From Psammoneis japonica (lineage: Eukaryota), in assembly GCA_008632985.1 (NCBI GenBank), contig QPGO01000150.1, positions 62,001-126,000 on the forward strand: a stretch of DNA of 64,000 bases. Direction: 5' to 3'. Positions 18,881 through 59,866 of the stretch are shown in pieces. Positions within the stretch are counted from its first letter, which is position 1. Each line of letters opens with the position of its first letter. A program made the translations under genes and the position numbers. Below the pieces are notes generated by a model, which was not told the origin of the DNA, ran no database searches, and saw only the letters and a program-made list of their open reading frames with translations.

Positions 18881-19179
18881 CGGCAGTGGTCAGATTTCAA
18901 ATTCTGAGCAATACAGAAATGTCAATGATGAATAAGGATTTTAGATCCCTTCTGCCCTTAATGTCATTATTCCAATGCCACTAATGAATACACAAATGAA
19001 TTTGTATTCCATCCTTTTCGTAAACTTTGATCTATCGGCATTTTCAATACGAGTACGCGATGACAACAATAAAGCATGCTTGTATGTGTCATGGTCATAA
19101 GCTGTAAGGCATACCGTCACATTTGGATTGAACTCGGGGATGTTGGTGTCGAAAGTAGCCATTTGTTTGACATTCGTGA

Positions 19180-35029: not shown

Positions 35030-35598
35030 AGAGTAATGTCATGTAAAACAGCCAAAGCACCAAGTCATCAAAATGGGGGTGGCACAGCAGACAGCTGCGT
35101 GCGCACCGCACCTCCTTTGCGAGCACAGCATGATTTTGACAACAAGTCCAGCCAGTGGCAGCCAGTTTGGAAAAACTTTGGCCTTGTGCTTGTGCACATC
35201 AACAGTGCAACTCAATGAAAGAGAGAGCACATTGTCTTGTGCATGTGCATCACACACCACATCAGTGTGCTGTGCAAAAAAAAATCTGTTTTCGAAAGAT
35301 GGCGCTGTGCACAGCAAGTGCAAACTGGGAGTGCGCATGCACAACTGTCAGCCAAAGAGCCAAACCTGGACATGCTGCTGTGTGTTGCACTCTTTCTTTC
35401 TCTCTAGTTACCTCCACGCTGCTTGCCACTGTGCACCCAACAGGTTCAACCATTCCCACACATGCCAGCTTCCAGCCGTCACACATGCCGTGGCACACGA
35501 CATCTTGTGCGCTCAAACAGCAGCAAAGACCAAACATCTCTTACACTCTCCCCAACCAACCTCACTCACACACTCAACACTGAGCTTCTTTGCACCAT
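35030..35598 (-). pseudogene. Hypermutated duplicate of the SKP1 3' end and downstream region (source about 36990-37535)
   Basis: Shared anchors AGAGTAATGTCATGTAAAA, CTCTAGTTACC, TTCAACCATTCC and CAACACT[A/G]AGCTTCTT. Confidence 0.85.
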
Positions 35599-35699
35599 GG
35601 AAAAGACCCAGGTGTTGAAATTGCAGTTGCGCCCTGTTTGGTTGGCTCCAATGGACTCTGTCACATGGGTGGGGCAGAGTTCTGTGAGCAAGCGAGTCT

Positions 35700-36800
35700 G
35701 AAACGATTGACCAGTTCACTCCCCATGGGAGAACACCTGCTGGGACAAACTGTGTGACTCACAGGTCTCATTGGCCCAGAAACCCACCAAAGCAGATGTT
35801 TGACATGTCTGCGTGCTCCTCATTGATTTTTGATTCATGTCTCAACCAAGCCTTGGTGTGCAGAGTCATGAGCACATTGATCCATGGCGCCACCCCCTCT
35901 CAATGTCTTTTTCTTCAAATGTGTTCGGGTGTGGTGTTTTCCCTTTCTTGCTCAACAGCATTTGAGAAATTCAGTCAAGAGCTTGCAACCCCAGAGAAAT
36001 TCTTTCCAATTGAACATTTGAGGGAGATGAGCATCTGTGGGTTGTTTGCTGCCATGGGGAGCGCAGTTGTTTTTGACCTCAAGTTGAGGTCACACAGCGT
36101 GTTGGTGACCAGCTCATTCTGTGCAATGAAAGCCAAGTGAGCACCCTCATCCACAAAGGCCTTGCAAAGCACTCTGGCACAAACAAAATGTTCTTGACAT
36201 CGTTTGGCCTCTGGGTGAATTGTGTTTGTCAAGAAGGAGGGATTGAAGGAAGTTGCTTTTCTCATGCATTTGGCATCAGTGCCTGCATGAGAGCCCGAGC
36301 CCAACCAATCAACCCTGAAGTGCAGAGAGCAGGCTTTTCATGTGTGCAAAATGGTCATCATTTTGGGCAACACTGCCTGTCATGAGACCATGTGGAACAT
36401 TTGGCAGTTTCAGAAGGATCTGCATGAGGTGTTTTGCAGCAGCGGTCTTTCCCGTGGACGATGGAGTCCAGAAAACATGCGAGCAGCGAGAGGAAGCGCG
36501 CCCCCCAGCAAATTCCACAAAGAGCTTGAAATTGTGCTGAAGACCCAACAGGAGAGTCGTCCTTTTCACTGTTGCCTCTTTGAGGAATTTCTCATGCAAA
36601 CTGCTTCATGACGCAACAGTTCCTCCAAGAGTGCCAGCATCAGCCTCATGCAGAGAACAAGCTGCTGTGCAGTGTGAGATTGTGCCCAGGGGGTCTCTTC
36701 CAAGCCAGCAGGCATGGTGTTTTTTCCCAACAGTGAAAAACATACAAGGGCAGCAAGTGCAACAGTGCAACGTGCAACAATTTGTTGATGTGATTGCTGT
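35700..36800 (-). pseudogene. Decayed P-loop NTPase-like ORF in island 3
   Basis: Walker A-like HVFWTPSSTGKT. Fragmented reading frames with no Tyr. Confidence 0.45.
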
Positions 36801-37517
36801 TGCATTGTTGTGACGACTCTTTGTTGGGACGACTGCTCTCTGGGGACGTGTCTGGCAGCAGCTGCTGTTTGATAAATTCTGTCCGTCTGTGCGTCCGAGT
36901 GCCCTTCGACGTACAGTAGAGAGAGTACAGAGTAGGTTTGCTACTCTCTACTCTAGCTCGAACATGGAAGTAGTTTGCTAGCTCTAGAGTAGAGTAATGT
37001 CATGTAAAAGCGCCATAGCAACTCGTCAAGACGGATAGTATGGCAGTATAGTCAGTGACGTGCACACTTCCAATAAGATAGATTTCTGCGCTCCCTTTTT
37101 GGAAACAAGCACAAACAAATGAGCCTTTGGTGCTTGCGCATCAACAACTGTAGCAACCCCACAAAAGAGAGATAGCGCATTATCTTGCGGTATGCATCCA
37201 TAGCCAGCAGCGCACTATATAAAAGGAATACAATAGACTCTAGTACCGTAAGATGGGGTATTGTACACATACAAGCTAGATTGTACACAAGTAGGTAGTC
37301 GAACCAAAACTGGATCTACTAGTATATATTGTATTCTTTCTTTCTCTAGTTACCCTCCATGCTACTCGCCACCATATACTCCAATACTTTCAACCATTCC
37401 AACACGCCTACAAACCGTCGCATATACTGAAGCACACGTCTTGTGTGCGCGCAATAAAAAGCAGCAGAGACCAACTTCTTTCGTATCTTCCCCCCAAACT
37501 CACTCTCACACGCAACA

Positions 37518-38347
37518 CTAAGCTTCTTCACACCACTTGTTTTCTTCACGAACTTGAGCTTCCTCTTCGGGAGAAAAGTCATTGGCAATGTTAAAGGTCG
37601 TACGAATTTCTTCAGGAGTCTTGCCCTTGATCATGCTGGCCACCGTGGCACACGTCAAATCCAACAATGGCTTGATATCCATGTAATTGGCAGCCAAAAT
37701 GAGTTGAAACAAGACGGCTTGTTCAACATCCACAAAGTCGGCATACCACTTTTGAACGACATCCGCCATGACTTGAGACTTGAGGGTTTTTCAATTTCCG
37801 TCATTTGTTCCGTACGATAATGCTTGCAAAAGGCGATTACCTTTTCGAGAATGACAGACGTCACGTTGGGAAGAGGAATTTCCGTACTAGTGCGGTCCTC
37901 ATCCTCGTCATCGTCCTGTTCTTCTTCTGTATGGATAGAGAGAGGAGAGGAGAGGAGGAGAGTGAGTCAGTGCATGACTAAAGCAACACACGAATCAACA
38001 GAAACAACAACTACGCGGTACTGTACCCACCCTCCATCATGCCCTTGACGAGCTCCGACATTTTCGCAACATCCGGAGCAACCTCAAACTTGTCTCCCTC
38101 CTTGCTTACCTAATATGAATGTGAGTGGATATGGATAGGCAACAGAGCGCATATGTGTAAGAAGAAGATAATACTCTTGAGCGGCATTTTTTCGTCACGT
38201 AGAAATCTACGCAGTGTGTACCAGTGGTCCCGATCGATCGCGCCATGGATCCATACACCACTCAAACACACCGCCATCGTCCATACACATACACTCCAAT
38301 CATATAATAACACTTACGAGGTTCACGGTAGTCTCTTCCACATTCAT
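37518..38347 (-). CDS. SKP1: SKP1 (SCF ubiquitin ligase subunit), 3 exons
   Basis: [85 protein letters not shown]. One C is missing in a C-run near 37785 (EKPLKS). Confidence 0.97.
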
Positions 38348-38828
38348 GGTTGCTGGTGTTGTTGTTGTTGTCAGAGAGAGTTGGTCTGGATCTATTTGCC
38401 GCGGCAAGTGCTCGTTGTGATTGTGAAGACGCGAGTCAAAACTGAAAAAAAACAGAGAGAGTCGAGGAAAATCGAAACGTGGCATGTCCTACGTAAAGAG
38501 ATGTATGTAGAATGGTACATGCATTTGTACCGAATGTTATCTATAGTATTGTAGAAATTCAAACTAAATGCATGTATGGAATCTGAAGAAACATTCATTT
38601 CAGTACAAACCCCTGTACATTTCTACACAACTCTTTTTCCCGCGGTTTTTTGGCGCCGCCGAAAAAACGATCTCCAAGTAGTCATCACAACACGCAGCCA
38701 TCAACCATCGTGGATGATGACTTGAATCTTTTATTGTCCATCAACATAAAGTCTGTGCTAAACAGTTGCTGACACAACAACAACAACAACAATGGCAACA
38801 GCGGTGGCTTGAGTGTGGCAGCCAGCAC

Positions 38829-39195
38829 TGCACTGTGCTCGAAGAACGAGTGCAAACGAAAGTAGAACGAAGTTCGAAAAGTGAAAATTATGAGATTAAA
38901 TTTTGCTCTGTGATTTTTGGTTTCTCCGAATGAGTTCTCAATGGCCTAAAGCTTCTGTGCTGCTTCTGCAGACAAAAGGCCTTTCGGAGAATGCATTCGT
39001 GACAACAGATTGTCCGGATGCGATTGCCATTGACACGCAAGATGTCAACATCGTCAATCGATCGTATTTGCAATTCTCGACATCCAATCAACTCTGTGTG
39101 ATCGTTCTGTCCTTTGCACGCATCCACGACTGTGGTGCGATTGACACACAAACAACACACAATCACAAACATGCGCGCAACAGTCGCACACTGCA
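38829..39195 (-). repeat. 3' LTR of the gypsy element
   Basis: Ungapped direct repeat of 43187-43553, adjacent to the PPT. Confidence 0.95.
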
Positions 39196-42100
39196 CTCGC
39201 CTCCCAATTGCACATTAGAGTCATTTGTTGAGTGGATTGTTCGACGGACATTGACAGTGTCAACAATGTCTCCACGTTCACTGCATTGTGCCATTGGCAA
39301 TGACTGTTGTTGTTGCAGGCAATGTGGGGCCGTTCCAATTTCCGAATGTCTTTTGAGAGTGACGTTGTTTGTTTCTCACTTAACATGCACACACACAGCA
39401 TTGCGTCGAGCATTCTCATTGACGTTCTTGTTGATGTGAACACAAGGACAATTGTCCTGGAGCAAGTGTTTTTCCTGACATCGATTGTGCACAGCATCGT
39501 GCCCAGCACTTAATGCACGCTCTCAATTGTGGCGTTCACTTGCTTGCTTGTGGATTTCATGCAGTTTGGCGGGCTTGCTTTACATGCCACATTGCTCTGC
39601 TGCACTGCCACGTTTCACAAGTGACAATGAACGATGGTCAAAGACATTGTGACCATTTCGTCTTGACAATCAATCCTGTGATGGTTGTGAATTCCATTGT
39701 GGATTTTTTTTTGCACTTCAACCATCTGTCAGTTGGATTTTAATCGTCATTTGGATGTTTCTTTCTGACATGCCGGTGTCATTTTGTCATTCCGAAGGCA
39801 CTGGTTTCGTGCACTAAGTGGAAAAATGTCCATTTTTCTTTTCTTTTCTTTTTCTAGATCTTTGGCACATCTCGTGTGTCTGCATGATGTGTGTTTTAAT
39901 GTCTTGCCTCGCACATTGTACAATGCAACCGCACGGGTGTTGTGAGATTGTCTTTTGCCAGTGTGAAGTGGACACGTGTGATGCACACCAATCTGTCACT
40001 GTTTTTTCCTAAATCGTCCTTTAAAAAGGCGATTTTGTCCTCATGACATGAGCATTTTTCGATCTCGCTCGCCTCCACGAAAAGTGTTCGCATGACATGT
40101 CGCGTCCGACAATTTGGAGGGAAATGTCTTCATCCCGTTTTAACGGCAGGACATTGTCGTAGGATTCAATTTTCTGTGGCAAGTCGGCTGATCGCGTCTG
40201 TCGTGACAATGTTCACCTTGCCCTCGTTGTGCTCTAATTTGGGACTGAAGTTGTCAACGTATGACTTTGTCCGTTGTGTCTTGTGATCCGTGCATGCACA
40301 AATCTGTTGGCCAAACAGCACATTTCGGAATTTTGTGGGTGTTTTCACTGTGGACAGAAGTTCTTTTTTCCGTTGTAACGCATGATGTTGAAATCCGTGC
40401 ATGATGACAATGCAGTTTTTGATTTGATGTGCTCCACATTTTTGGAGACTTTTCGTTCCGTACTTGCACTTTTGCCGTTGACCTTTGTTGAGGTGAATCT
40501 GGCCAGCATTGTGCAGGAGATCGTTGAGACCACATGTCTCGACAGCAGTGACGCATGACGACGAGATGTCGCAGTGTTCTTTGCGTTTTTCTCATGTTGC
40601 GATTGCTTGAATCGCCTCCATTTTCTTTGTAATCGAATGCATGTCGTTGCTCATGGAAGTCTTCATAGTTTGTTTCAAGTTAAACAGTGAAGGACTTTTG
40701 TTGTCAACCTTCTAAGTGACTGTTCCAGTCGTTTGAATGCCGCACTAAGCTGTCACTTGTGCAGGTGACATTTTGAAGTTACTTTTGTCAGGCACAAACG
40801 ATCACATGCAGTCGTTCTGACAACTTCAAACCTGTTGTGAGTTCACTCAAGTGTTGCACAAAAATGTCTGGGGCTCCACAGATTCTCGTTGGAAGTCCAC
40901 AGCACTCATTTTCTCCCCACGGCATGATTTTCGTGTGAGCACGACGTGTGCTTTTTTCATTTGACATGGTGGCATTCCATGTTTGAATCAAACAGATTGC
41001 ATGCATGAAACGTTCTTGCTTCAATGGCATTTCCTGAACATTGGGCAAAGGATGCACCACCTGTGTGAACCTTGTGCCAAGCTTCTGAGTGTCGGGTGCG
41101 GTCGAACTCGACCTGTTTTCTTTGGACAATGAGTCTCAGAGCGACTCATTCAGAGCAATTTCATTCTTGAGACTTCAATCTTTCACAACAGGTCAAACTC
41201 CTTTTGATTGGACACCTCCAAAGACTGTGATGGGAGAAGGTTCTCACGCGTCGTGGAATCACGTCAGATTTTCCACGATGAGATCCACTGATGCTTCCCA
41301 CACATTCGTCTGAGGAGCTTTTCAAAAAGATTTCAACCTCTTGAGAAGAAGATTGAGTTGGTTGTGTTCATTTGGGTCAGATGCATCGCCGCAGTTGTCA
41401 CTTGATTGGGGTCGATGGCATGACAATGTGAGTCGAGGACCATTGGTTCCGTCACCAACTCCATTCACGGCGTCATGTTTTTCAATGTGATCGGTTTTCA
41501 GCTTGAAAACATCGGCATCGAAGAGTGTGCGAACATTCTTCACAGGGCAATTGCTTCTTCCCATTTGATTTCTTCAATTGCGTGGTCCAACATGACATGA
41601 TTGCAAGACTGGACATTGAGTCGCGTCCCATGATCACATTGCTCGACCTTGAAGAAGATTTCGTGTCATCGACATGTGCTGTTTGAATGTCAGCACGTCT
41701 TAAATTTGCATGGTGAGAACTGAATTTGGTTTCTGCTGTCAGTCGTAAAGAGCTCACCCTTGGTTTCCCAAGTTTTTTGGTGGCGGATGTTTTGTGTTCT
41801 CGACTTTGCACGATTTTGAGTAAAATCATGGGCTGATGATGTTCTTTGTCGAGAGAACAGGCAGATGCTTTTTTCTCTCCTTTCCCAAGGAAGTGTTCGT
41901 GTAAATGATGACTCCTGGACTGGCGTGAATCATTTCTGCCTTTTTTCTGGGCTTCCCAATGTCCAGCAAAGCAAACAATTCGTGAATGGACCCAAATTGT
42001 TCTTCGGATTCACTCTGGATCATCCGATCACATTGGTGTTTTTCTTCACTGAGGGTGTCAGAATCTGATTTTTTGCCCTCATGCTCTTTTTCTTTGTTCG

Positions 42101-43186
42101 AGGAACTCGCTTTGAGCATTTTTTGAACCGCCTGATCAATCATGACGTTCAACTCTTTTTTGCGAGCGGCATTTTCGTTGTCGCGACGCGACCGCGTGCG
42201 ATTGCCATTTTAAACGGCGCATTTTTGGGTCTCTTTCAGAGTCACCCTTGCACTCTTTTGCCAGTTCATTTTCAGAATGGCTCCAATCCGTGATGTGGGC
42301 ATTCTTTTTTCAAAGATTGGACCTGGCATTCACTTTGGATTGTTCAGGTGCCGTGTGGGAGACCATTTTTGGAACCAAATTTGGAGCCATTTTGGTTTTG
42401 GAATCAATTCCACTGTCAGAGCCTGATTTGACATGGTTTGTTGTCACAGACATCATGAACGACTTCTAGACGACTCAAAACTCAATCAGCTCATCAAGGA
42501 TGAGTTCCAACAGTTGGTTGTTTTGGACAGCAGACTGAGGCTGCCATCCTTGCGGTGCGAGTGACAGCCAATGGCTCACGACTCGGTTTCCCGCTAGATT
42601 CAACTTAGAATCCATTGAAGGGTTGCATGGACGCTCTTCATTGACCTCTTGGGTCCAACAGAGGCTTTCTTGCTGTCAAGCAGCTCTGGTTTCTTCAGAT
42701 CGTTTCGAAAACAACAACTCCGATTCTGAAGTGCAGTTCCTGGAAAGACATGAGATGAGAGACTCTTGAGGTGCTTTCCAACGGTTCCTTCTTGCTCTTT
42801 GGATCGAGGCTCGTTGATTCGGTCTCTAAAAACTCTCCAATGGTCTCTCCTTGCAAAGTAGATGCATTTCTCGGATCTGATCGACTCGGGACTTGCATTC
42901 TCTGCAACCATGACTTGGTGTAGATTTTTTGACAATGCGGTGCACTTGTGGAGTCCTTGATCCTTGGATGCTTGGAATGGACCGCACTAGAACGAATCTT
43001 GTCATTTGCTAGACGAAAAACAGCGTTCCATCTTGAGGCACTGCTCGGATTGAGCTTCTTCCGCTCGGAAATCGATTCTGGCAGAACTGATGCGATTCGT
43101 CCCTGTTCACAGAAGAATTTGCAAAGGCACATTAGGTAAAATTTTCATTTTCCGTGCTTTTTACCTTCTGTGGTGTGTGTGCACAA

Positions 43187-43553
43187 TGCACTGTGCTCGA
43201 AGAACGAGTGTAAACGAAAGTAGAACGAAGTTCGAAAAGTGAAAATTATGAGATTAAATTTTGCTCTGTGATTTTTGGTTTCTCCGAACGAGTTCTCAAT
43301 GGCCTAAAGCTTCTGCACTGCTTCTACAGACAAAAGGCCTTTCGGAGAACATGTTCGTGACAACAGATTGTCCGGATGCGATTGCTGTTGACACGCAAGA
43401 TGTCAACATCGTCAATCGATCGTGTTTGCAATTCTCGACATCCGATCAACTCTGTGTGATCGTTCTGTCCTTTGTGTGCATCCACGACTGTGGTGCGATT
43501 GACGTGCAAACAACACACAATCATAAATGTGTGTGTAACAGTCGCATGCTGCA
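43187..43553 (-). repeat. 5' LTR of the gypsy element
   Basis: Ungapped direct repeat of 38829-39195. Confidence 0.95.
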
Positions 43554-44793
43554 GCACCCTCCAAAAGCAGTGCGCTCTTTGCTGGTCCACCAGACATGAC
43601 AATGATGCTGCTGCTTTTGTTCCTCTTTCCCTCACTCACCCCCAAGAGATTCTTGCTCATTGTTGCTGTTGTTGTTTCAACAAGAGCGCTCTCTGGCACC
43701 ACTTCATCCAAAGAGAGCAGCGCCCCCCTCTGTCCCCTGTTTTGTTGTGTGTGCGCTGGACCCACCCTCCCAGCAGCTGCAAATGTGTCGTGCAGTCAAG
43801 TGGTTGTTGTTTGCCACCATGAACATGTGCAAGACTTGCACCCATTCTTGAAATCCAGCGCCTTTCTGAACTCTGCTGTGCAAGCACAGCCAGCCACCAG
43901 GTTTCTTGCTGGTGCTGACACCACTCACAAAAGAGCTTCTTGTTCACTCGACCCCCTCTTCCTGTTCTTTGTCAAGGAGAAGATTTGTGCCAATGTCATG
44001 TCAAGAGCATTGCTGTGCACACATGGCCATTGTGCAAGGTGCTTCCAGCATGCTGTTCCAGCCTTGTTGTGGACAAACCCCAAACCAACAAAACTCTGCA
44101 GCACACTCAAGGCAAAAGGCTGTCTCTCTCCTCCTTTGAAGCCCAGGCTCTCTTTTCCATCATTTTGTTGCACACTTCTTGTCACAAAAACAACTCAAGA
44201 AGTGCAGAGAAGCAGATGATGGCTGCACCAAAAACGTCAGCACAACAAGAGTGCAGCGCCATTCCACCCTGCTGCACCAGCTCTGCCAAAATGCCAGCCA
44301 GCATTTTTCTAAATGAAGGTGCCTCCAGAATGATGCCAGAGGTTCTTGTTGCTTCCCCCAGCAACACTCCTCTGTGGCTCTGCCTCTCATCAGCACTCCA
44401 ACAATGCTTTGGCACTGCTCCAGTGTCCAGTGGCTCCTGGCAGGAAAGCAAGCTGCAAGCAACAAGATGGTTGAGCAGCTGGGTGATCACCCAGCATCGC
44501 CCCTCCTGGCACCCAGACTCAGTCAATGTGGGTGGAGCTAACAGCAAAAGTGAAAAGCAGGTTTGTGCCTCTCTTTGCTGAGCAGATGACAAAACAAGAT
44601 GGGCAAGGAATGCAGCATCATCAAAGAGGCTTTTGAAAAATGAGACACATGGCAGAGCAACAGCGGGAAAAAAGTTGAACAGAAGGACAAAAAAAGTGGC
44701 ATCTTGGCACTCGCATGAAGTCAAGAAAACAGTGATTCTTTGCTTTTTCAGCAAACAAGCCCTTTGGGGGGGGGGGGGGCTCACCATGCTCAT

Positions 44794-44995
44794 GTGGAAG
44801 ATGAGAAATGTCCAGCCTGCCATTTGTGTGCTGATGCTGTTGCCACATGGTGTCCGTGCATGACGAAGGATTGTGCGGCGTGGTGGTGAACAGCACTGCG
44901 CTTGTGTGGAAGATGAGAAATGTCCAGCCTGCCATTTGTGTGCTGTTGCTGTTGCCACATGGTGTCCGTGCATGAAGGATTGTGTGACGTGGTGG
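44794..44995. repeat. About 112-bp tandem duplication
   Basis: GTGGAAGATGAGAAATGTCCAGCCTGCCATTTGTGTGCTG at 44794 and 44906. Confidence 0.9.
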
Positions 44996-45199
44996 CAAAC
45001 AGCACAAAGTGCACAGCAAAGTCATTGCAGGAGGTCCTGGCCCCCTCACAACTCTTGTGTGAGTCAATGCCAAAATCACAGCACATCTAAATGCACGAAC
45101 TCTGGTCTAAACCCAGATCTTGTGCAACAAACTGTTGCATTCCTGCAACTGATCTTGGTGCTGAGTCACACAGTCAGTCACTCAGTCAGCCACTCAGTC

Positions 45200-45750
45200 A
45201 ACAAATGCAGCAGAAACTTTGGCATGATCAAATTGTGCTCTTCTGCAGCCTGCTCTTTGATGCCCTGCCCTGCCAACCAACCTTGCAAGCAGTTGGCTCC
45301 AATGATGGCCACAACCCATGCAAACAATTTCTGTGACAACATTGGCACTCAGTGTCTTGACAAAAAGAGTGAGCCACTCTGCCGCTCTTTTTCTTGTTGG
45401 GTCTTGTCTTGCTCCAAAGCAACAACACTTTGTTGTCTTCCAACAAATTGCTTGTTGTCACTTGCATCAATGTCAGAAGTCAAACCATTCAAGATTGGCA
45501 CATGCTTGCAGCCCACATCCTGCAATGGCGGTCCTTGTTGGTGCTGTTTCGGAGCGGAGCTTTTGGCAGCTTGACGAAAGCCTCCGGCACTTGCCTTGGC
45601 AGCTGCTGTGGCATGCTGCTGCTTTTCATTGTCACTTCCTTCCGCTGCTGCTTCTCACTCCAATGGTGCCTCTTGGCTCACTTGTCCATGGCAATTTTGG
45701 AGAATGATTTGAGTTGATGCATGTGGCAGCTCTTGGTGCCTTTGAGCACT
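45200..45750 (-). pseudogene. Hypermutated duplicate of the 3' coding end of gene 47305-49015 (source about 47310-47835)
   Basis: Shared GAAACTTTGGCATGAT, TGCCAACCAACCTTGCAAG, TCAAACCATTCAAG and TTTTGGCAGCTTGACGAAAGCCT. Confidence 0.92.
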
Positions 45751-45910
45751 TCACATTTGCATGAGAAAGTCTCAAAGGTGTCATTTGTCCAGTTGAAAAA
45801 TGACTGTTTCAGGTCATTTTGGGGGTGTTCCAGGACCCGCGGGTCGACAAGCAAGAACACTCGACTTCGGCGGGTTCTCATTCGTCGGTGAACGGCATCT
45901 GTCGTGCACC

Positions 45911-46924
45911 ATGTCTTCGTCCCCCGAGCAACCGAGCAATGTCAACCAGTTCAATGTCAACGACCAAGGCAACGTCAACCAGATCAATGTCAGCGACCAA
46001 GGCAATGTCAACATGATCAAGGTCCAAATTTGCAAGTGCCAGTGGTTTTCAGACCAGCCGACTTGGGCGAAAGTCCTGGAAATGTCTTTGTTTGTTGTTG
46101 CGGCAACAGGCTCCACCGTTGCTGGTGTTGTCCTTGGCGGTGATGACAGCAACGGTGACGAATCGTTGCCATCCCCTGGCAAGTCTTCACCAACGCCACC
46201 GTCAATGACAGCAACTCCAAGTGTCTCACCGACGCCACGGAATGCAGAAGGACCACCGGTGCGTACACCGTCTTGGCATCCAACGCCGGTGCCTGCCCAT
46301 GCTCCTACATTGCCAATGCCCACGCCGTCTCCGACGCGTTGGCCCACCCGCTCACCAACGGCGCCGCCAACATCGCAGACACCAACCCCAGCACCCACGT
46401 CTTTGCCTGCTGTTGCCATTCCACCAGCAAACACATTTGTAGTCGGACCGGCACTGCCCAGTGCCAGAACTTTTCCCTTTGCCTTTGGTGGGGGCAATGT
46501 AGGTGCAACCGTTGGTAACGATTGGAAAACAAGTGAATTTCCCGGTGCGCCATCTGGTGTCACCAATGCACCCTTGCTGTTTTCGGGGTCATTCGAGAAC
46601 GGGAATTGGGTCGCCGGGGGGCTCGGATCATGCAGCAAAGACGGATGTTACGGTGCTTTGACCAAGCCATTTGAAATCGTCCATGCCAATGGTCTCACCA
46701 CTGCTCGCATCATTGGGATTGCCTTTGGTGACGACTCTGATAATGATGACTTTGCACTTTTGGCGGCACAAGGACAATCGCTGTTTACGGCTCCGTTGAC
46801 CATCCCACCCTTCTCCACGCAGGTCACTTTTCTCACTGGTTCATATGAAAATATGATACCTGGCACCCATCTATTGGATGAAGAGCTGTCCGGCTTTTCC
46901 CTCGAAGTGAGGCCAGCATTGTAA
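45911..46924 (+). CDS. Single-pass membrane protein with Pro/Thr stalk, partly TpA-depleted
   Basis: Open frame with NVN..NV.DQG repeats, a TM segment, a PT stalk and a globular C-terminus. Confidence 0.6.
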   Translation: MSSSPEQPSNVNQFNVNDQGNVNQINVSDQGNVNMIKVQICKCQWFSDQPTWAKVLEMSLFVVAATGSTVAGVVLGGDDSNGDESLPSPGKSSPTPPSMTATPSVSPTPRNAEGPPVRTPSWHPTPVPAHAPTLPMPTPSPTRWPTRSPTAPPTSQTPTPAPTSLPAVAIPPANTFVVGPALPSARTFPFAFGGGNVGATVGNDWKTSEFPGAPSGVTNAPLLFSGSFENGNWVAGGLGSCSKDGCYGALTKPFEIVHANGLTTARIIGIAFGDDSDNDDFALLAAQGQSLFTAPLTIPPFSTQVTFLTGSYENMIPGTHLLDEELSGFSLEVRPAL

Positions 46925-47304: not shown

Positions 47305-49015
47305 TCAATACAATGGAAACTTTGGCATGATTAAATCTCGTTCTTCTGCCGCTTTCTTGATACCCTGCCATGCCAACCAACCTTGCAAGTAGTTGATTCC
47401 CATGACCAAGACCCGCGCCGACAATTTCTGTAACCACCTTGGTACTCGGTGTCTCGACAAGAAGAATAAACCACCACCGTCTCTTTTCTTGTTGCTGAGT
47501 TTCGTCTTGTTCCAAAAGGAACGCTTCATCCTCCTCTAACGAATTGCTTGTCGCTTGCATCATGTCGGAAATCAAACCATTCAAGGTTGACACGTACTCG
47601 TAATCGGCATCCCGTAAGGGTTGTCCTTGTCGACACTGTTCCGGAATGGCATTTTTGGCAGCTTGACGAAAGCCTTCAACACTCGCCTTGGCGGCGGCTG
47701 TGGCATGCTCCTGCTGCTGCTGCTTCTTTTCGTTGGTTCCTTCTTGTTCCAACAAGGCCTCTTCGTATACTTGTCCGTAATAATTACGGAGTGATTCGAG
47801 TTGATCCATGTATAGCGTTCGTGCCTTTTCAGCAATACTCAAGAGAATGGAATGAACGTTGCTACTACTACCGCTTTCCTCTTCCAATAAGCACTGACGT
47901 GCGTTTTCCAAAATGGCCGTGATTGTCTCACCAAAGTGTTCAAGAGGCGGTCTTGTTGTTGCTTCATCATCACTTTCTTCTGCAACATGTAGCCAAATTG
48001 CTTCTTGTTGTTGTTTTAATTCGTCCAGTTTCATCCATGCGCGTGACAATACCTCGTCTACTCGATTGATTTGTGGTGGTTTTTGTTGATTAGATTCATC
48101 CTTGTCATTTTCTTCTGCGGTAGTCGACACGGCAATCGGTGGTGGTTCTTCTTGTGCAGCTTGCTCTTGTCGTACTATCGAATCGGAAGTGTCCTCTGAC
48201 GTTGTTTCTGTTTTATCTAAAGAGGGGTCCATCGTGGCGTCTTGCTCTTGAGCAGTTTCATCTCGTTCCACTTGCGATTCTTCTTGTTCCAACTCTAATG
48301 AAAACTGACACGTCAATCCGTTGGAGAGTGATGCATAAATTTCACGCAGTAACTTTGGAAACGCCTCCAATTCAACCACAGGAGATTCATTCTCGGTATT
48401 TTGAATCTCCAAAAGAACTTCTTTTACCAATTCTTGATACTCCTTTATGGAGGATACAATTTCAAGTCTTGATACAAGTTCGGGCGTCCAGTGCTGAAAA
48501 TCATGCTGGACGACATGATTCATGGCATCGTCTATGTACTCTTGATTGTTTTTCATCAAGACGGCAACTAGTTTTGGTTTGCCCAAGCCACCCGCAGTGA
48601 CACGTCGTTGAATACCTCGTAGGAGGGGTTGTAATTGCTGTTGCGAGTCGTCGTCGTTGTATGATATGAGCAACACGTCACAAAGCATACCCATGGTTTC
48701 CAGTACAGCATCTCGATTACTTCCAACAAACTTGTCACTAATAATGGTCGATGAATCATCCAAAGGAACAATGGCAACGACAGTCGTTCCGTCTACCATG
48801 TCAATGCTTCCAATGGAAACATACTTTTTTTCTTTTTCTTGAAGAGTACTTCGAGTAGTTGTTTCGCCTCCATGAGGGACGACTCCCCAAAATCGTGACA
48901 GACTTGGTCGTTTCGCTGTAGCGTCAACAAGTGATGTATGCAAGCATAATGTGATGAAAAAGAAAAGGACGAGAACAACCGTGGATGCAAGAAACAAGTT
49001 GTTGTTTGACATCAT
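47305..49015 (-). CDS. Uncharacterised protein with signal peptide, acidic middle and C-terminal GINYLQGWLAWQ...MPKFPLY
   Basis: Long ORF with an apparent 2-nt frameshift near 47480. The decayed duplicate at 45200-45750 keeps the continuous frame across that site. Confidence 0.7.
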
Positions 49016-56618: not shown

Positions 56619-57312
56619 TTTATGCTATGCTCGTTGCGTGTTATCTGCTTGGTATATGATTTCACTTGTGTCTCGATTGACTACGTTATAGATCGTACTG
56701 GTCCCTTACTATTACGGATGCAACACAACGTTGCTGCGACGACGACTTGAGACTGGACGCCATGGAGTGTACGGTGTGCGGTATGCAGTATCCATGCGTA
56801 CCGGTATCCGCGAAATTCATTCATATCATGTTGGAGAACAATAACGCGGCCTGTACGTCGTCGCGCGCACGCGCGAATGGACCGGCAAAAGCGAGCAAGC
56901 AGCTGCCTGGCTGGACCCGACCTCCCAAGCCGGGAGTGGGCTGGACCGAAAAACTCGGTCCATTTTCGTCGCGCGCACGCGCAAATAAGGGTGGTGCAAC
57001 ATGCAGCTACTGACAAGAGTTAATGTATCACGGCGACGTGTTACAGCCTTTAAATGTCACAAAGGGCGTGACAAAAATAACCTTTTGTCTGCATGCATGC
57101 TGCAGTGGGTCGGTTGCCACTTTTTTTAGCTCGAATTCGGCCGAACAGCTCGTGTTTTGCATGATTTTTCCTGAATTTCACCGTGCTTCACCGTGGTGAA
57201 AACAACAAGCCACAAGTCTGTGATGGAGGTGGTCCGTCTGCCAACTCTCATTCATTTTGTGTTTGTTGTGTGTCAAAGATTGCGCACACACATGAAAAGT
57301 TGGCAGGTGCTC

Positions 57313-57570
57313 TCCAGCTCCAGGTGGGACCTCGCACTGCTGCACTGTGACATCAACAGTTTTTTGGATTGCGATGCGTTCCAGCTCTGGGTGGGACCTT
57401 GCACTGCTGCACTGTGACATCAACAGTTTTTTGGATTGCGATGCATTCCAGCTCTGGGTGGGACCTTGCACTGCTGCACTGTGACATCAACAGTTTTTTG
57501 GATTGCGATGCGCCCCAGCTCTGGGTGGGACTTCGCACTGCTGCACTGCGGCATCAACAGTTTTTTGGAT
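57313..57570. repeat. 67-bp tandem repeat, 4 copies, with dispersed copies near 57700, 59340 and 63700 (inverted)
   Basis: Unit TCCAGCTCTGGGTGGGACCTTGCACTGCTGCACTGTGACATCAACAGTTTTTTGGAT... starts at 57313, 57380, 57447 and 57514. Confidence 0.95.
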
Positions 57571-59866
57571 CGCGTTGCATGTCGCGCACGCACATTTCTG
57601 CGTGTTGCATTCTACGAAATTGTTTCATGCTCCCTGTTTTGCGAAGCCAAAGGCTTTCTATTTTCAACATTTGTGAGAATGAAAGACGCGTTCCAGGTCC
57701 AGGTGGGGGACCTTGTGCTGCTGAACTGTGACATCGACAGTTTTTTGAATCGCGTCGCATGTCGCGCGCGCACATTTCTGTGTGATTTTGGCAAAATTTT
57801 GCATGATTTCACAGTGCAATTGTCAGGCCATCCATTGAACAACTTTTAACATTTTTTTCTTCTGCGCCATTCTTGAGTGTCTTGAGAATGGCACAGGGCA
57901 GGCTTGTCATCCAAAACCCCAAGTGCCAACAGGGGCAGATGTGCTGCAAACTTGGCCGTTTTTTTCGTGTCGAAGACAAATGCATCCATCAACCAGAGTG
58001 TGAACTGCAGAGCTTGCACGCAGAATTCTGCTGGGCAAATGTCACAAAAAGTCCCACCTGGGGCTGGAACCCATCAAAAATGCGCTGGGTGTGTTCTTTG
58101 ATGTCTGAAGAATGCACCCGGGCAAACTGTCAATGATGTGCTCCAAGCATGAAGGAGGAGATGCGTTCGTAAAATTGCCTCTCTTTCTGTTGGCAATCAT
58201 TTGCATTTTCATTGCAGCACAAATTTGCTGTGGAGCTCACACGCAGAATTCTGTGGGCCCAATGTCACACGAAGTCCCACCCAGGACTGGAACCCATCAA
58301 CAGCATGTGCACTTTGCCGCGCACTTTCTTCATCTCACCATTGCAGCATTGGCGTGAAGCAGCACAAGCAGCAGGCCGTGGTGGAGCTGTTCTGCATCAA
58401 TGCATTTCTAGCCAGAGAGGGGATGGAGAGAAAAGGGTGGGCCGAGGGTGCGGACAGATGGTTGAGAGGAAGAATCAGTGACAGTGGGGTGGCAAAGGAG
58501 ACGAGCTTGATGAGACTGAGAATTTGAGAGGCCCAGAGTGGAGGGGTTGAAGCATGATGGGAGGAGCCAAAAGAGTCATTTCCAGGGCACATTGGAGTGG
58601 GCGAGGAGGTCAGAAGGTGCCAAGAGTGAGCTGGCAAAGGCAGGGAAAGATGCTCAGGAGTTTGAAAAGGAGGATGGGCTTGTCCAGGATGGTTTGGGAG
58701 CAATGGGAATCATTCGGGTCCTGAGAGTCATCACGCAGAAATTGTGTGGGAGAGTGCCAAAAACAATTGTCATCAGTCTGTCCATCTGTCTGCATGCGAA
58801 CATCAACTTCTCGGGAAATCAATTGAAATGCTGTCTGATTGACGGCATTTTGATTCACATGGTGAAGGCCAATGCCATCAATCAGATGGCGTTTCAATTC
58901 AGTTCCTGAAAAGTCATTAGCTCCAATCACTCTCTCGTGCAACATTGTGCACATTTCCACACAATTTTGTGTTTTTCCTTGTGTGAAACATCAATTGTGA
59001 CCCACGCGACATTTTCGAATGATTCCTGTTGAAGGGGCAGGATGGAGGCAGATGTTGTGACAGAGGTGCCAAAGAAAATGCATGGAAATGACTGCCGATG
59101 CCGCCAAGGTTGTTGAATGTAAAAGGAAGGAGAAAGAGTCCTGCCTGCTTGGTTGACAGCATCGATGATGTCAGAGCCATTGGTGGATGATGCAGAGCGA
59201 CCAAGGAGCTTGCACCATGGATTCGTGATGTGATCATTTGTGTCAAACCCAGCACTGCTTGAATTGTGTCCAAACCAGCTCTTCCCTTGATGAGCATGAT
59301 TGGCTTCATGCAAAACTCCAAAAGAGCAACAGACGTGCTCCAGCTCTGGGTGGGACCTCGCACTGCTGCACTGTGACATCAACAGTTTTTTGGATCACGT
59401 CGCATGTCGCACACACACATTTCCATGTGTTGCATTCTCCAAAATTGTTTCATGCTCCCTGTTTTGCGAAGCCAAAGGCTTTCTATTTTCAACATTCATG
59501 AGAATGAAAATGTGCTGGGCATGTTCTTCAATGTCTGAAGAACACACCCGGGCAAACCACAAATGATGCACTCCAAGCATGCAGGAGGAGATGCGTTGGC
59601 TTTCTGTTTTTAACATTTGTGAGAATGAAAATGCACTGGGTGCATTCTTTGATGTCTGAAGAACATGCCTGGGCAAACTGTCAATGATGTGCTTCAAGCA
59701 TGCCGGAGGAGATCCGTTCATAAAACTGCCTCTTTTTCTGTTGGCAATCATTCACATTTTCATTGCAGCACAAATTTGCTGCGGAGCTCGCACGTGGAAT
59801 TCTGTGGGCCCAATGTCACACGGAGTCCCACCTGTGGCTGGAACCCTTTGGCAGATGGCAAACTGC

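What the first reader, a model, noticed from the sequence alone, without database searches (positions are those of the whole stretch)
38829..43553. Region-targeted TpA->TpG/CpA hypermutation (opposite to RIP) recorded in an LTR pair
Seen: the two 367-bp LTRs align without gaps and differ at 19 dinucleotides. All are transitions inside pyrimidine-purine steps: 5 TA vs CA/TG, 6 CG vs CA/TG, and 8 CA vs TG. There are no transversions and no changes in other contexts. Established: LTRs are identical at insertion; 5mC deamination explains CpG->TpG/CpA; fungal RIP gives CpA->TpA, which gains TA. Inference: a second, TpA-specific A->G (T->C) process acts on silenced DNA here, possibly as genome defence. 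Candidate mechanisms are a TA-preferring DNA adenosine deaminase (TadA-derived editors prefer TA), Pol eta-type error-prone repair (WA->WG hotspot) triggered by T:G mismatches, or a modified T or A. I do not know of a description of this in diatoms but cannot search.
Basis: partly seen in the sequence, partly recalled or inferred. Interest (0 to 1): 0.95.

Follow-up and report, generated by a model that had tools for sequence, protein, structure and literature searches.

The report
TpA-erasing hypermutation in diatom repeats
In this diatom, sharply bounded stretches of repeat-rich DNA have had almost every TA step converted to TG or CA (and many CG steps too), a mutational pattern opposite to fungal RIP that so far has been reported only in one unrelated alga.

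Summary
The two 367-bp LTRs (38829-39195, 43187-43553) align without gaps. They differ at 27 bases, all transitions, all inside 19 pyrimidine-purine steps: 5 TA vs CA/TG, 6 CG vs CA/TG, 8 CA vs TG.

The LTR pair is one case of a window-wide pattern. Five sharply bounded domains (24.8 of 64 kb) have TA o/e 0.08 and CG 0.53, with CA and TG about 1.65. The rest has 0.61, 0.99 and about 1.18. Loss of TA+CG (60.9 per kb) equals gain of CA+TG (60.1 per kb).

Four polarity tests give TA->TG/CA and CG->TG/CA:
- two local duplicates with one copy inside and one outside a domain;
- the depth-weighted majority of the element's high-copy family in reads;
- three conserved tyrosines read H, H and C in a deaminase pseudogene.

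The mechanism is untested. I favour a TpA-directed DNA adenine deaminase acting on silenced DNA, alongside ordinary 5mC decay. A 2026 preprint shows the same TpA-only hypermutation in mutation-accumulation lines of Bigelowiella natans. My searches found no diatom report. I class it as a new member of a very recently described kind.

The parts
38829..39195 (-). LTR (left on the + strand; the 3' LTR if the element is read on the - strand), 367 bp, TG...CA ends
   Evidence: ungapped match to 43187-43553, 27 transitions. TA o/e 0.18, CG o/e 1.2.
43187..43553 (-). LTR (right on the + strand), 367 bp
   Evidence: TA o/e 0.28, CG o/e 1.25. A contig of run X1 bridges its last 66 bp into the flank with 1 difference (table 8, record 7).
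39196..43186 (-). Internal region of the LTR element, non-coding as it stands; member of a high-copy family
   Evidence: No Pfam hit in six frames at E<=0.01 and about 50 stops per frame. No stop-to-stop ORF over 179 aa overlapping 38700-43700. Summed contig depth 5,500-12,300 against 55-69 in the flanks. TA o/e 0.14.
38825..38828 (.). Target-site duplication GCAC, left copy
   Evidence: (flank print): GCAC before the left LTR and after the right LTR.
43554..43557 (.). Target-site duplication GCAC, right copy
39196..39205 (-). Polypurine-tract-like run (9 of 10 purines on the - strand) abutting the LTR; suggests the - strand is the sense strand
   Evidence: Read. The internal region has a negative AT skew on the + strand. 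Weak evidence.
1..5950 (.). TA-poor domain 1 (runs off the window start): TA o/e 0.06, CG 0.57, CA 1.63, TG 1.56
19150..21290 (.). TA-poor domain 2: TA o/e 0.05, CG 0.14, CA 1.65, TG 1.97
35050..36870 (.). TA-poor domain 3: TA o/e 0.03, CG 0.31
38829..46800 (.). TA-poor domain 4: the LTR element plus 3.2 kb to its right. That flank (43554-46800) has TA o/e 0.06 and CG 0.43, and is single-copy by depth at least to 44500.
   Evidence: The left border coincides with the element's edge within about 70 bp (last flank TA at 38759).
57130..64000 (.). TA-poor domain 5 (runs off the window end), built of nested direct and inverted repeats
45213..45724 (+). Mutated copy (TA 0, CG 7) of the 3' part of the ORF at 47300-49114
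47316..47811 (+). Unmutated counterpart in normal DNA (TA 15, CG 28), inside the intact 604-codon ORF 47300-49114 (- strand)
35030..35597 (+). Mutated copy of a local tandem duplication (spacing about 1960 bp). The first 19 bases lie outside the domain border, still carry TA and are identical to the other copy.
36991..37535 (+). Unmutated counterpart in normal DNA
5379..5837 (-). Relic of a CDA-fold (CMP/dCMP-type) deaminase gene inside domain 1. The catalytic Glu reads Lys and three conserved Tyr read His, His and Cys.

Best explanation
The window comes from a diatom. It holds five sharply bounded domains of repeat-rich, gene-poor DNA. In them two dinucleotide-specific transition processes have run close to saturation on the DNA itself: TpA->TpG/CpA (A:T->G:C) and CpG->TpG/CpA (G:C->A:T). 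The LTR element at 38829-43553 is a non-autonomous member of a high-copy family that landed at the edge of such a domain. Its two LTRs record both processes after insertion.

My reading of the 19 differing steps:
- the 5 TA-vs-CA/TG steps are a TA lost in one LTR;
- the 8 CA-vs-TG steps are mostly a TA lost in both LTRs, through opposite strands;
- the 6 CG-vs-CA/TG steps are mostly CpG decay.

Shown: the regional pattern, the direction of change, the TA specificity, symmetry between strands, and action on single-copy as well as repeated DNA. TA steps appear to change faster than CpG steps in this element, and at least about 100 times faster than other positions.

Inferred: the CpG part is ordinary deamination of 5-methylcytosine in silenced DNA. 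The TpA part is enzyme-driven, most likely a DNA adenine deaminase of the TadA/ADAT2 kind that prefers A after T and is recruited to silenced or foreign chromatin. The inosine it makes is copied as G. That mechanism was proposed for the same signature measured in Bigelowiella natans.

Sub-probabilities: a real, in-situ, TpA-directed mutational process, about 0.85. That it is an adenine deaminase rather than a repair bias or a thymine modification, about 0.4.
For: Regional pattern. Pooled domains (24.76 kb): TA o/e 0.08, CG 0.53, CA 1.68, TG 1.65. Remaining 39.25 kb: 0.61, 0.99, 1.18, 1.19. Other dinucleotides and base composition are nearly equal. Loss of TA+CG is 60.9 per kb and gain of CA+TG is 60.1 per kb. 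Borders resolve within about 50-100 bp.

Spectrum. Nine repeat pairs inside domains (partly overlapping, so not independent) give 200 transitions and 17 transversions among 217 differences, mostly in pyrimidine-purine steps. Three control pairs in normal DNA give 148 and 151 among 299. The share of CA/TG double differences rises with divergence: 1 of 8 and 0 of 7 steps at about 2%, 8 of 19 at 7.4%, up to 14 of 18 at 16%. That is what two independent hits on one ancestral step predict.

Polarity:
(a) 35030-35597 (inside a domain) vs 36991-37535 (outside): TA outside = TG 16 or CA 10 inside, reverse 0. CG outside = TG/CA inside 9, reverse 3.
(b) 45213-45724 (inside) vs 47316-47811 (outside, in an intact ORF): 13 of 15 TA and 20 of 28 CG outside are CA/TG inside, reverse 2.
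(c) Reads. Of the 40 best-supported variant places printed (588 found), 38 lie in the element. There the depth-weighted family differs almost unanimously from this copy. They give CG->TG/CA 13, TA->TG/CA 9, one CA->TG double change (2 places), CA/TG->CG 4, TG->TA 1, other transitions 5, transversions 4.
(d) The deaminase relic, aligned with 20 homologues: three conserved Tyr columns read H (CAT), H (CAT) and C (TGC). The catalytic Glu reads Lys, through a CpG->CpA change across the codon boundary.

Context. A:T->G:C events in set (c), per available site in the internal region: TA about 9 of 96, CA 4 of 750, AA 2 of 758, GA 3 of 606.

Composition argument for the LTR. The LTRs still have CG o/e 1.2 but TA o/e 0.18-0.28. 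If the 8 CA/TG steps, plus an equal hidden class, came from CG, the original CpG o/e would be about 2.2. If they came from TA, the original TA o/e would be about 0.9 (counts; my arithmetic).

Strand symmetry. TA->TG 26 against TA->CA 22 over sets a-c.

Region, not homology. The TA-poor flank 43642-44500 has the same depth (55-61) as the unique left flank (63-69). The unmutated duplicate copies lie within 2 kb of the mutated ones.

Precedent. Preprint 10.64898/2026.01.13.699255 (abstract, Results and Discussion read): 231 of 302 new mutations in 15 lines fall in two integrated viral regions. 230 of them are A->G or T->C, all of these at TpA, at about 1000 times the baseline rate. [quoted passage not shown] An ADAT2-like candidate is named.
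Against: No enzyme, methylation, chromatin or expression data could be obtained: no genome is held and no RNA holder is listed. The mechanism therefore rests on analogy.

The ancestral state of the 8 CA/TG steps of the LTR pair is inferred, not observed. A homogeneous two-hit model from TA predicts about 0.8 such steps, and from CG about 0.24. The data need a class of highly susceptible TA sites plus a few resistant ones. Two of the 4 shared TAs sit in the two most resistant contexts (TTAA and CTAA), which fits, but it is a post-hoc fit.

In the printed read-based subset CpG losses (13) outnumber TA losses (9). The rows were chosen by support, so the TA share for the whole element is unknown.

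The family master copy may itself be TA-poor. Only a lower bound on its TA content is available.

A:T->G:C changes are not confined to TA: 9 of the 18 single A:T->G:C changes in the subset are in other contexts. In B. natans the process is TpA-only and shows no CpG component.

The element is from a family with very many copies. If the assembly mixed copies, the LTR differences would be between-copy differences rather than post-insertion ones. The spectrum would stand, but the dating logic would not.

The best DNA run may be the data the window was assembled from, so read support is not independent.
Confidence: 0.6

Rival explanations
1. Repair-driven rather than deaminase-driven. T:G mismatches from 5mC deamination in methylated domains recruit patch repair with an error-prone polymerase (Pol eta type, WA->WG). 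Alternatively a T:G-specific glycosylase resolves replication mismatches at TpA towards C:G, as very-short-patch repair is thought to deplete CTAG in E. coli. Either would couple TA loss to CpG methylation.
For: TA loss and CpG loss share the same borders. Transitions in other contexts are also raised inside domains: about half of the A:T->G:C changes are not at TA. Polymerase and glycosylase preferences are recalled, not tested.
Against: Transversions are nearly absent: 0 of 27 in the LTR pair and 17 of 217 in domain repeat pairs. Pol eta-type mutagenesis at A:T gives many transversions and also hits AA (recalled).

The LTR element has lost most of its TA while its CpG is barely depleted (CG o/e 0.8-1.25, TA 0.14-0.28). 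TA loss therefore does not wait for CpG deamination events. A bias in mismatch resolution cannot exceed the rate of replication errors, yet TA steps here outrun CpG decay.

In B. natans the TpA process runs with no GC->AT component.
Confidence: 0.13
2. A modified thymine at TpA is the cause. One example is 5-hydroxymethyl- or 5-formyluracil made by a TET/JBP-type dioxygenase in silenced chromatin, which mispairs with G and gives T->C at TpA on either strand.
For: The change is strand-symmetric (26 against 22) and confined to chromatin-like domains with sharp borders, as expected for a mark laid on double-stranded DNA. The chemistry, and the reported TpA preference of 5hmU in dinoflagellates, are recalled, not tested.
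Against: There is no evidence of such a base or enzyme in diatoms in anything I read. Oxidised thymines also give transversions and strand breaks (recalled), and these are not seen here. The sequence data alone cannot separate this from A deamination.
Confidence: 0.1
3. The composition is inherited, not acquired in place. The repeats, or foreign DNA they derive from, were TA-poor and CpG-poor before they arrived, for instance through selection against UpA and CpG in an RNA stage or RNA-level A-to-I editing before reverse transcription. The LTR differences would then be ordinary decay.
For: The family master copy may well be TA-poor; only a lower bound on its TA content is known. UpA and CpG suppression with CpA/UpG excess is common in RNA viruses (title and abstract of PMC3829696 seen in the listing; otherwise recalled).
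Against: LTR-LTR differences cannot come from the RNA stage. They are 27 of 27 pyrimidine-purine-step transitions.

Copies of local host sequence, including a fragment of a neighbouring ORF, are TA-free inside a domain and normal outside it. A host-type deaminase gene relic has its Tyr codons converted. Single-copy flank DNA is equally TA-poor.

Both strands are affected equally, which is unlike editing of a sense RNA.
Confidence: 0.07
4. CpG decay explains everything. All 19 steps were CpG at insertion. CA-vs-TG steps are CpGs deaminated on opposite strands in the two LTRs, and TA states come from double deamination (CG->TG->TA).
For: The CA/TG class is symmetric and fits a CpG ancestor as well as a TA ancestor. 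CpG decay does occur here.
Against: This would create TA, but TA is almost absent from the domains (o/e 0.08).

Polarised comparisons give 48 TA losses (26 + 13 + 9) against 1 TG->TA gain, plus one CG-vs-TA step.

It would require an original CpG o/e of about 2.2 in the LTR. With 19 shared CpGs and 6 single losses, a CpG model predicts about 0.24 CA/TG steps, not 8 (my arithmetic counts).
Confidence: 0.04
5. It is an artefact: systematic base-calling or consensus errors at modified bases in methylated DNA, or a chimeric assembly of a multi-copy family.
For: The element belongs to a very high-copy family. Its 19 LTR steps could not be checked one by one. The sequencing platform of the run is not on record.
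Against: k-mer contigs built directly from a DNA run hold 67% of the sampled words. They reproduce 1 kb of TA-poor single-copy flank with 1 difference. The pattern also rewrites codons of a pseudogene and local duplicates coherently. The target-site duplication is intact.
Confidence: 0.03

Closest known systems
TpA-specific hypermutation of integrated viral DNA in Bigelowiella natans (Mettrop et al., bioRxiv 10.64898/2026.01.13.699255; abstract, Results and Discussion read)
   Same: A:T->G:C transitions at TpA giving TpG or CpA according to strand. Confined to discrete regions of foreign or silent DNA. The rate is orders of magnitude above the rest of the genome. [quoted passage not shown]
   Different: A different supergroup lineage (a stramenopile diatom, not a rhizarian). 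The targets seen here are an LTR-element family, nested repeats, local pseudogene copies and adjacent single-copy DNA, not giant-virus or virophage insertions. Depletion here is near saturation (TA o/e 0.03-0.28, against 0.45 for their NCLDV region). It is accompanied by CpG decay, which they did not see. Some A:T->G:C change also occurs outside TA. Their evidence is experimental (mutation-accumulation lines); mine is comparative only.
Repeat-induced point mutation (RIP) of ascomycete fungi
   Same: A dinucleotide-specific burst of transitions that degrades repeats and leaves compositionally distinct blocks with sharp borders. It destroys coding capacity and inflates LTR divergence.
   Different: The direction is opposite. 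RIP turns CpA into TpA and so enriches TA (recalled; also stated), whereas here TA is erased. RIP is triggered by homology and hits both copies of a duplication. Here one copy of each of two local duplications is untouched and single-copy DNA is affected.
Decay of methylated CpG in silenced transposons (5-methylcytosine deamination)
   Same: The CpG->TpG/CpA half of the signature, polarised here. Cytosine methylation of part of the genome is documented for the diatom P. tricornutum (passage in PMC6604790).
   Different: It explains none of the TA loss. In this LTR element CpG is barely depleted while TA is mostly gone.
ADAR hyper-editing and fungal sexual-stage A-to-I mRNA editing
   Same: A->G outcome with a preference for U/T before the edited A (ADAR preference as stated; the fungal case is recalled).
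   Different: These act on RNA. They cannot make two LTRs of one insertion differ, change both strands equally, or alter non-retroelement DNA.
TadA/ADAT2 tRNA adenosine deaminases and laboratory adenine base editors derived from TadA
   Same: The chemistry needed (A to inosine, read as G) and a natural substrate with U before the target A. DNA activity is reported for amphioxus ADAT2 and trypanosome ADAT2 according to the preprint.
   Different: No such enzyme could be looked for in this organism. Base editors are engineered. The deaminase relic in the window belongs to the CMP/dCMP-type branch and is dead.

Membership tests
TpA-directed hypermutation of silenced or foreign DNA (B. natans type) | Changes are A:T->G:C transitions, with transversions nearly absent | tested here: met
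   LTR pair: 27 of 27 differences are transitions. Domain repeat pairs: 200 transitions among 217 differences. Polarised TA losses: 26, 13 and 9, against 1 TG->TA gain plus one CG-vs-TA step.
TpA-directed hypermutation of silenced or foreign DNA (B. natans type) | Restricted to TpA dinucleotides | tested here: inconclusive
   There is strong enrichment: about 9 of 96 TA sites against 4 of 750 CA, 2 of 758 AA and 3 of 606 GA sites. It is not exclusive, since 9 of the 18 single A:T->G:C changes in the printed subset are in other contexts.
TpA-directed hypermutation of silenced or foreign DNA (B. natans type) | [quoted passage not shown] | tested here: met
   Five domains have TA o/e 0.03-0.28 and CA/TG 1.3-2.0, against 0.6 and 1.2 elsewhere. 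Borders are sharp within 50-100 bp.
TpA-directed hypermutation of silenced or foreign DNA (B. natans type) | Rate orders of magnitude above the genomic baseline | tested here: inconclusive
   This is indirect. In the LTR pair no change falls outside pyrimidine-purine steps (171 such positions in each LTR), while most TA steps changed. By my arithmetic, TA is at least about 100 times faster. No per-generation rate can be obtained.
TpA-directed hypermutation of silenced or foreign DNA (B. natans type) | De novo mutations observed in mutation-accumulation lines, in only some lines | not testable with these tools
   It needs cultures and sequencing.
TpA-directed hypermutation of silenced or foreign DNA (B. 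natans type) | Targets are of foreign origin (virus or transposon) | tested here: inconclusive
   One domain holds an LTR element of a high-copy family and another holds nested repeats. The domains also hold copies of local host sequence and single-copy DNA. No transposon or viral Pfam domain was found in the three stretches scanned: 1-6200, 39196-43186 and 56800-64000.
Fungal-type RIP | C->T at CpA giving TpA enrichment | tested here: not met
   TA o/e is 0.08 in the domains. The polarised direction is TA loss.
Fungal-type RIP | Both copies of a duplicated sequence are mutated | tested here: not met
   In both local duplications one copy is normal (TA 15 and 18) and the other depleted (TA 0 and 3) (extended alignment).
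LTR retrotransposon | Two direct terminal repeats with TG...CA ends, flanked by a short target-site duplication | tested here: met
   367-bp LTRs with TG...CA ends and a 4-bp GCAC duplication.
LTR retrotransposon | Primer-binding site and polypurine tract next to the LTRs | tested here: inconclusive
   A 9-of-10 purine run abuts the LTR on the - strand (read). I recognised no tRNA-complementary site and made no tRNA comparison.
LTR retrotransposon | gag-pol coding capacity (reverse transcriptase, integrase, protease) | tested here: not met
   No Pfam family at E<=0.01 in six frames of 39196-43186. The element is therefore non-autonomous or too decayed. It is filed as an LTR-bounded, non-autonomous element.
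5mC-driven CpG decay | CpG->TpG/CpA with CpG as the ancestral state | tested here: met
   20 against 2, 9 against 3, 13 against 4.
5mC-driven CpG decay | Cytosine methylation present in the affected DNA | not testable with these tools
   No methylation data are reachable.

The most novel reading that the evidence does not exclude
Diatoms run a chromatin-guided DNA-editing defence that deaminates adenine at TpA in silenced and invading DNA. It works faster than methyl-CpG decay and is homologous to the system just seen in the chlorarachniophyte Bigelowiella. It would then be an old genome-immunity mechanism shared across SAR lineages, the mirror image of RIP. It would be the main force that inactivates transposons in these algae and a natural source of TA-specific DNA adenine deaminases.
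Probability: 0.3. Interest if true: 0.9.

Novelty: new member of a known kind. Interest (0 to 1): 0.74.

Why it matters
If confirmed, a second, distant algal lineage shows TpA-directed hypermutation of silenced DNA. An isolated observation in one chlorarachniophyte would become a candidate for a widespread eukaryotic genome defence. Some diatoms can be cultured and genetically modified (recalled), so the enzyme hunt may become practical.

It also has immediate practical consequences.
- LTR divergence cannot be used to date insertions in this genome. The 7.4% divergence of this pair contains no change outside pyrimidine-purine steps.
- TA loss removes TAA and TAG stops (2.3 and 1.2 per kb in domains, against 9.1 and 8.8 elsewhere) and Tyr codons. 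Decayed repeats therefore yield long spurious ORFs without tyrosine and escape homology-based transposon annotation.
- A plot of TA o/e against CA+TG o/e marks the domains from sequence alone.

Tried and rejected
- The whole genome of the window is not held. No genome-wide spectrum or search for deaminase, DNMT or Pol eta genes was possible.
- Pfam scans gave no transposon domain. I scanned six frames, with stops read as X, over the element's interior and over 1-6200 and 56800-64000. The domains at 19150-21290, 35050-36870 and 43554-46800 were not scanned in six frames; only their long ORFs were (no family).
- ORF 47300-49114 has no homologue among the 7999 candidates scored, so it could not serve as a protein outgroup.
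- Majority-rule polarisation with three or four repeat copies in 57-64 kb failed. The sites are saturated: TG>CA 6 and CA>TG 6.
- Two scans of metagenome contigs with degenerate LTR patterns found no related copies.
- Earlier findings of this scan: nothing by place, words or sequence.
- No RNA holder is listed for the stretch, so nothing can be said on expression.
- Read laying printed 40 of 588 variant places. The family consensus, its TA content and the states at the 8 CA/TG LTR steps remain unknown.
- Cluster look-up of four relatives of the deaminase relic returned no names.
- I considered and rejected the weak YbeY hit (below cut-off, in a repeat).
They may hold extended sequence context that I could not compare.

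Full report
**1. The observation**

A direct repeat with start-to-start spacing 4358 lies at the stated place. Compared base for base, 38829-39195 and 43187-43553 are 367 bp each. Each begins with TG and ends with CA, and they align without a gap. They differ at 27 bases, all transitions, none transversions.

Grouped by dinucleotide, the 27 bases fall into 19 pyrimidine-purine steps (last row):
- CA/TA 3 and TA/TG 2, making 5;
- CG/TG 4 and CA/CG 2, making 6;
- CA/TG 8.

The four bases GCAC stand immediately before the left repeat and after the right one, so this is one insertion with a 4-bp target duplication.

Only 53.4% of LTR positions lie in such steps. Twenty-seven of 27 falling there has P = 4.4e-8. 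All 27 being transitions adds a factor of about 1e-8. Three repeat pairs in the ordinary part of the window show 148 transitions and 151 transversions among 299 differences. The spectrum is therefore not the organism's general one.

**2. What the element is**

The 3991-bp interior has no stop-to-stop ORF above 179 codons, about 50 stops per frame and no Pfam family in six frames at E<=0.01. A purine-rich run abuts the left LTR on the minus strand, and the interior is T-rich on the plus strand. The sense strand is therefore probably the minus strand.

I laid the k-mer contigs of a DNA run of the same organism on 38000-44500 at 80% likeness. This gave 4799 pieces. Summed depth was 5,500-12,300 over the interior and 15,600-46,800 over bins lying wholly within the LTRs, against 55-69 over both flanks. 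The element is thus a non-autonomous, LTR-bounded member of a very abundant family that also has solo LTRs. Summed contig depth is not a copy number, so I give no figure.

The organism is a diatom. The PRORP gene at 32855-34687 finds its best relatives among diatom proteins, at no more than 45% identity.

**3. The LTR pair is one instance of a regional phenomenon**

A sliding profile of observed/expected dinucleotides is bimodal. With borders refined from the positions of individual TA steps, five domains stand out: 1-5950, 19150-21290, 35050-36870, 38829-46800 and 57130-64000. Together they make 24.8 of 64 kb.

| | TA o/e | CG o/e | CA o/e | TG o/e |
|---|---|---|---|---|
| Pooled domains (24.76 kb) | 0.08 | 0.53 | 1.68 | 1.65 |
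| Remaining 39.25 kb | 0.61 | 0.99 | 1.18 | 1.19 |

All other dinucleotides and the base composition are nearly the same in the two classes. Per kilobase the domains lack 60.9 TA+CG steps and carry 60.1 extra CA+TG steps. That is the balance expected if TA and CG were converted into CA/TG.

Borders are sharp, within about 50-100 bp. The left border of the fourth domain coincides with the edge of the LTR element. To the right, the domain continues for 3.2 kb of DNA that is more depleted than the element itself (TA 0.06, CG 0.43). That DNA has single-copy depth, at least to 44500. The element therefore seems to have landed at the edge of an older domain.

Nine repeat pairs inside domains overlap partly, so they are not independent. 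They show 200 transitions among 217 differences, again mostly in pyrimidine-purine steps. The proportion of CA/TG double differences grows with divergence: 1 of 8 and 0 of 7 steps at about 2%, 8 of 19 at 7.4%, up to 14 of 18 at 16%. This is the behaviour of two independent hits on one ancestral step, not of a one-step dinucleotide flip.

**4. Direction of change**

An LTR pair has no outgroup, so I looked for polarity elsewhere. Four independent sources agree.

(a) A local tandem duplication (spacing about 1960 bp) has one copy inside the third domain (35030-35597) and one outside (36991-37535).
- Where the outside copy has TA, the inside copy has TG 16 times and CA 10 times. The reverse never occurs.
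- CG outside is TG/CA inside 9 times, and the reverse occurs 3 times.
- The first 19 bases of the inside copy lie just outside the border. They are identical to the other copy and still carry their TAs.

(b) 45213-45724, inside the fourth domain, is a 74%-identical copy of 47316-47811. The latter lies in normal DNA within an intact 604-codon ORF.
- The outside copy has 15 TA and 28 CG; the inside copy has 0 and 7.
- Thirteen of the 15 TA correspond to CA (8) or TG (5).
- Twenty CG correspond to TG (11) or CA (9). Only 2 cases run the other way.

(c) In the read lay-out, 38 of the 40 best-supported variant places printed (588 were found) lie in the element. At these the family, weighted by depth, differs almost unanimously from this copy. 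Read with their neighbours, they give for this copy:

| Change in this copy | Count |
|---|---|
| CG->TG/CA | 13 |
| TA->TG/CA | 9 |
| CA->TG double change | 1 (2 places) |
| CA/TG->CG | 4 |
| TG->TA | 1 |
| Transitions in other contexts | 5 |
| Transversions | 4 |

The family therefore carries TA where this copy has lost it. Normalised by the sites available in the interior, A:T->G:C hits about 9 of 96 TA sites. It hits 4 of 750 CA, 2 of 758 AA and 3 of 606 GA sites. TA is favoured some 20-30 fold, but not exclusively.

(d) Domain 1 contains the relic of a CDA-fold deaminase gene (5379-5837, minus strand).
- Its best solved relatives are CMP/dCMP-type deaminases, at E = 3e-8.
- An exhaustive profile search finds 471 relatives at E<=0.001.
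- Aligned with 20 of them, the three conserved tyrosine columns read His, His and Cys in the relic. The codons are CAT, CAT and TGC, each one transition away from a Tyr codon, inside its TA.
- The near-invariant catalytic Glu reads Lys, through a CpG->CpA change across the codon boundary.
- The 153-codon ORF contains no tyrosine.

Over sets (a) to (c), TA->TG and TA->CA are equally common, 26 against 22. Both strands are therefore hit.

**5. Reading the 19 LTR steps**

The two LTRs share 19 CpG and 4 TpA (counts).

Suppose the 8 CA/TG steps had been CpG. With 6 single losses among about 25 CpGs, a uniform model predicts 0.24 such steps. Adding an equal hidden class of same-way double losses, the LTR would also have started with a CpG o/e near 2.2.

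Suppose instead they had been TpA. The LTR would then have started with about 25 TA, where 28 are expected at o/e 1. That is close to the genomic background.

A uniform TA model still under-predicts the class, at about 0.8 steps. The data need about 21 susceptible TAs, each lost with probability near 0.87 per LTR, plus a few resistant ones. This is a post-hoc fit, but it has some support. Survival of TA in the domains depends on its neighbours. Relative to normal DNA it ranges from 0.014 for ATAT and 0.022 for ATAC/GTAT to 0.31 for CTAA/TTAG and 0.60 for TTAA (small counts). Two of the four shared LTR TAs sit in TTAA and CTAA.

On this reading the pair records about 21 A:T->G:C changes at TpA and about 6 changes at CpG. 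No change of any other kind occurs in the 171 positions per LTR that lie outside pyrimidine-purine steps. This makes TA steps roughly ten times more mutable than CpG steps in this element, and at least about 100 times more mutable than other positions. These figures are my arithmetic and rest on the inferred ancestry. In the read-based subset, by contrast, the per-site TA rate is only about 2.5 times the CpG rate and CpG losses are more numerous. The printed rows were selected by support, so I cannot resolve the difference.

**6. Mechanism**

Shown: the process acts on DNA in place, within bounded regions, on both strands, and on repeated and single-copy sequence. Unmutated copies of the same sequence can lie 2 kb away. 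It is therefore aimed at regions, not at homology.

The CpG half is what methyl-cytosine deamination does. Diatom transposons are known to be methylated (passage in PMC6604790). I could not test methylation here.

For the TpA half I favour a DNA adenine deaminase with a preference for A after T, recruited to silenced or foreign chromatin. It explains the pure transition outcome, the TA preference and the independence from CpG loss: the LTR element has lost most TA while its CpG is nearly intact. It is the mechanism proposed for the one experimentally documented case.

Rivals:
- Error-prone or biased repair of T:G mismatches. The absence of transversions and the TA-before-CpG order argue against it.
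- A mutagenic thymine modification at TpA. Sequence alone cannot separate it from A deamination.
- Inherited composition or RNA-level editing. LTR-LTR differences, strand symmetry and the mutated host-derived copies refute it as the sole cause.
- CpG decay alone. It predicts TA gain.
- Artefact. Contigs built straight from reads reproduce a kilobase of TA-poor flank with 1 difference. However, that run may be the one the window was assembled from.

**7. Comparison with what is known**

Full-text searches returned one relevant paper, the preprint 10.64898/2026.01.13.699255. I read its abstract, Results and Discussion.
- In 15 mutation-accumulation lines of Bigelowiella natans, 231 of 302 new single-nucleotide mutations fall in two integrated viral regions.
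- 230 of those are A->G or T->C, and all of these are at TpA.
- The rate is about 1000 times the baseline, and the mutations appear only in some lines.
- An ADAT2-like protein is offered as a candidate.

I found no report of such a process in diatoms. The diatom mutation-accumulation paper describes CG, CC and TG as the mutable contexts, with a GC->AT bias (PMC6604790, passages). The diatom retrotransposon paper contains none of the terms 'point mutation', 'RIP', 'deamination' or 'dinucleotide' (PMC2806351, term search). The preprint's supplements were not seen.

The present case shares the signature and the regional targeting. It differs in lineage and in targets. Depletion here is near saturation. 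CpG decay runs alongside it. Some A:T->G:C change occurs outside TA. It is not RIP: the direction is opposite and duplicated copies are not both hit.

**8. Verdict**

I rate it a new member of a kind described only in 2026. It is of high interest because it extends that phenomenon to diatoms. It also matters for dating and annotating repeats in such genomes: TA loss removes TAA/TAG stops and Tyr codons, and produces long empty ORFs.

Noticed in passing
window 5379-5837 (- strand): A dead CDA-fold deaminase gene (CMP/dCMP-deaminase type, HxE...PCxxC scaffold) sits inside TA-poor domain 1. Its catalytic Glu reads Lys and three conserved Tyr read H, H and C. The N-terminal third no longer aligns with relatives. 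Whether an intact paralogue exists in the genome is unknown. Nothing links it to the hypermutation itself.
   Followed up: yes
window 20545-21546 (+), 44182-44973 (-), 61235-61993 (+): Long ATG-to-stop ORFs (252-333 codons) inside TA-poor domains have no Pfam family. TAA and TAG are 4-7 times rarer in the domains than elsewhere, so these are probably spurious ORFs created by stop-codon loss, a hazard for gene prediction.
   Followed up: partly
window 35030-36990 vs 36991-~38950, and 45213-45724 vs 47316-47811: Both duplications with one mutated and one unmutated copy are local and same-strand, with about 2 kb spacing. In both, the upstream copy lies inside the TA-poor domain. The border at about 35050 falls 20 bp inside the duplicated unit.
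   Followed up: partly
window 836-1582 and 1583-2332: A perfect-register tandem duplication of about 750 bp at 97.7% identity inside domain 1. All 14 differences are transitions, 9 of them in pyrimidine-purine steps and mostly at CpG. This fits TA having been exhausted before the duplication.
   Followed up: partly
window 59067-59597 vs 63469-64000 (inverted), and nested repeats through 57300-64000: Domain 5 is a mosaic of direct and inverted repeat units at 78-98% identity, with no recognisable transposon protein domain. Its nature (satellite-like, or a decayed transposon nest) was not resolved.
   Followed up: partly
window 38000-38650 (run X2): Contigs of the second run of the same sample cover only the left flank, at very uneven depth (up to 818), and show a 208-base skip at 38104-38313. 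This could be a length variant or a small repeat in that flank.
   Followed up: no
window 7734-18168: A cluster of secreted-type genes lies in normal DNA: three ORFs with PT-repeat hits just below the Pfam cut-off, an M64-type peptidase and a subtilase. Two inverted paralogous segments (6856-8016 vs 12833-13704) have ordinary transition/transversion ratios, and I used them as controls.
   Followed up: no
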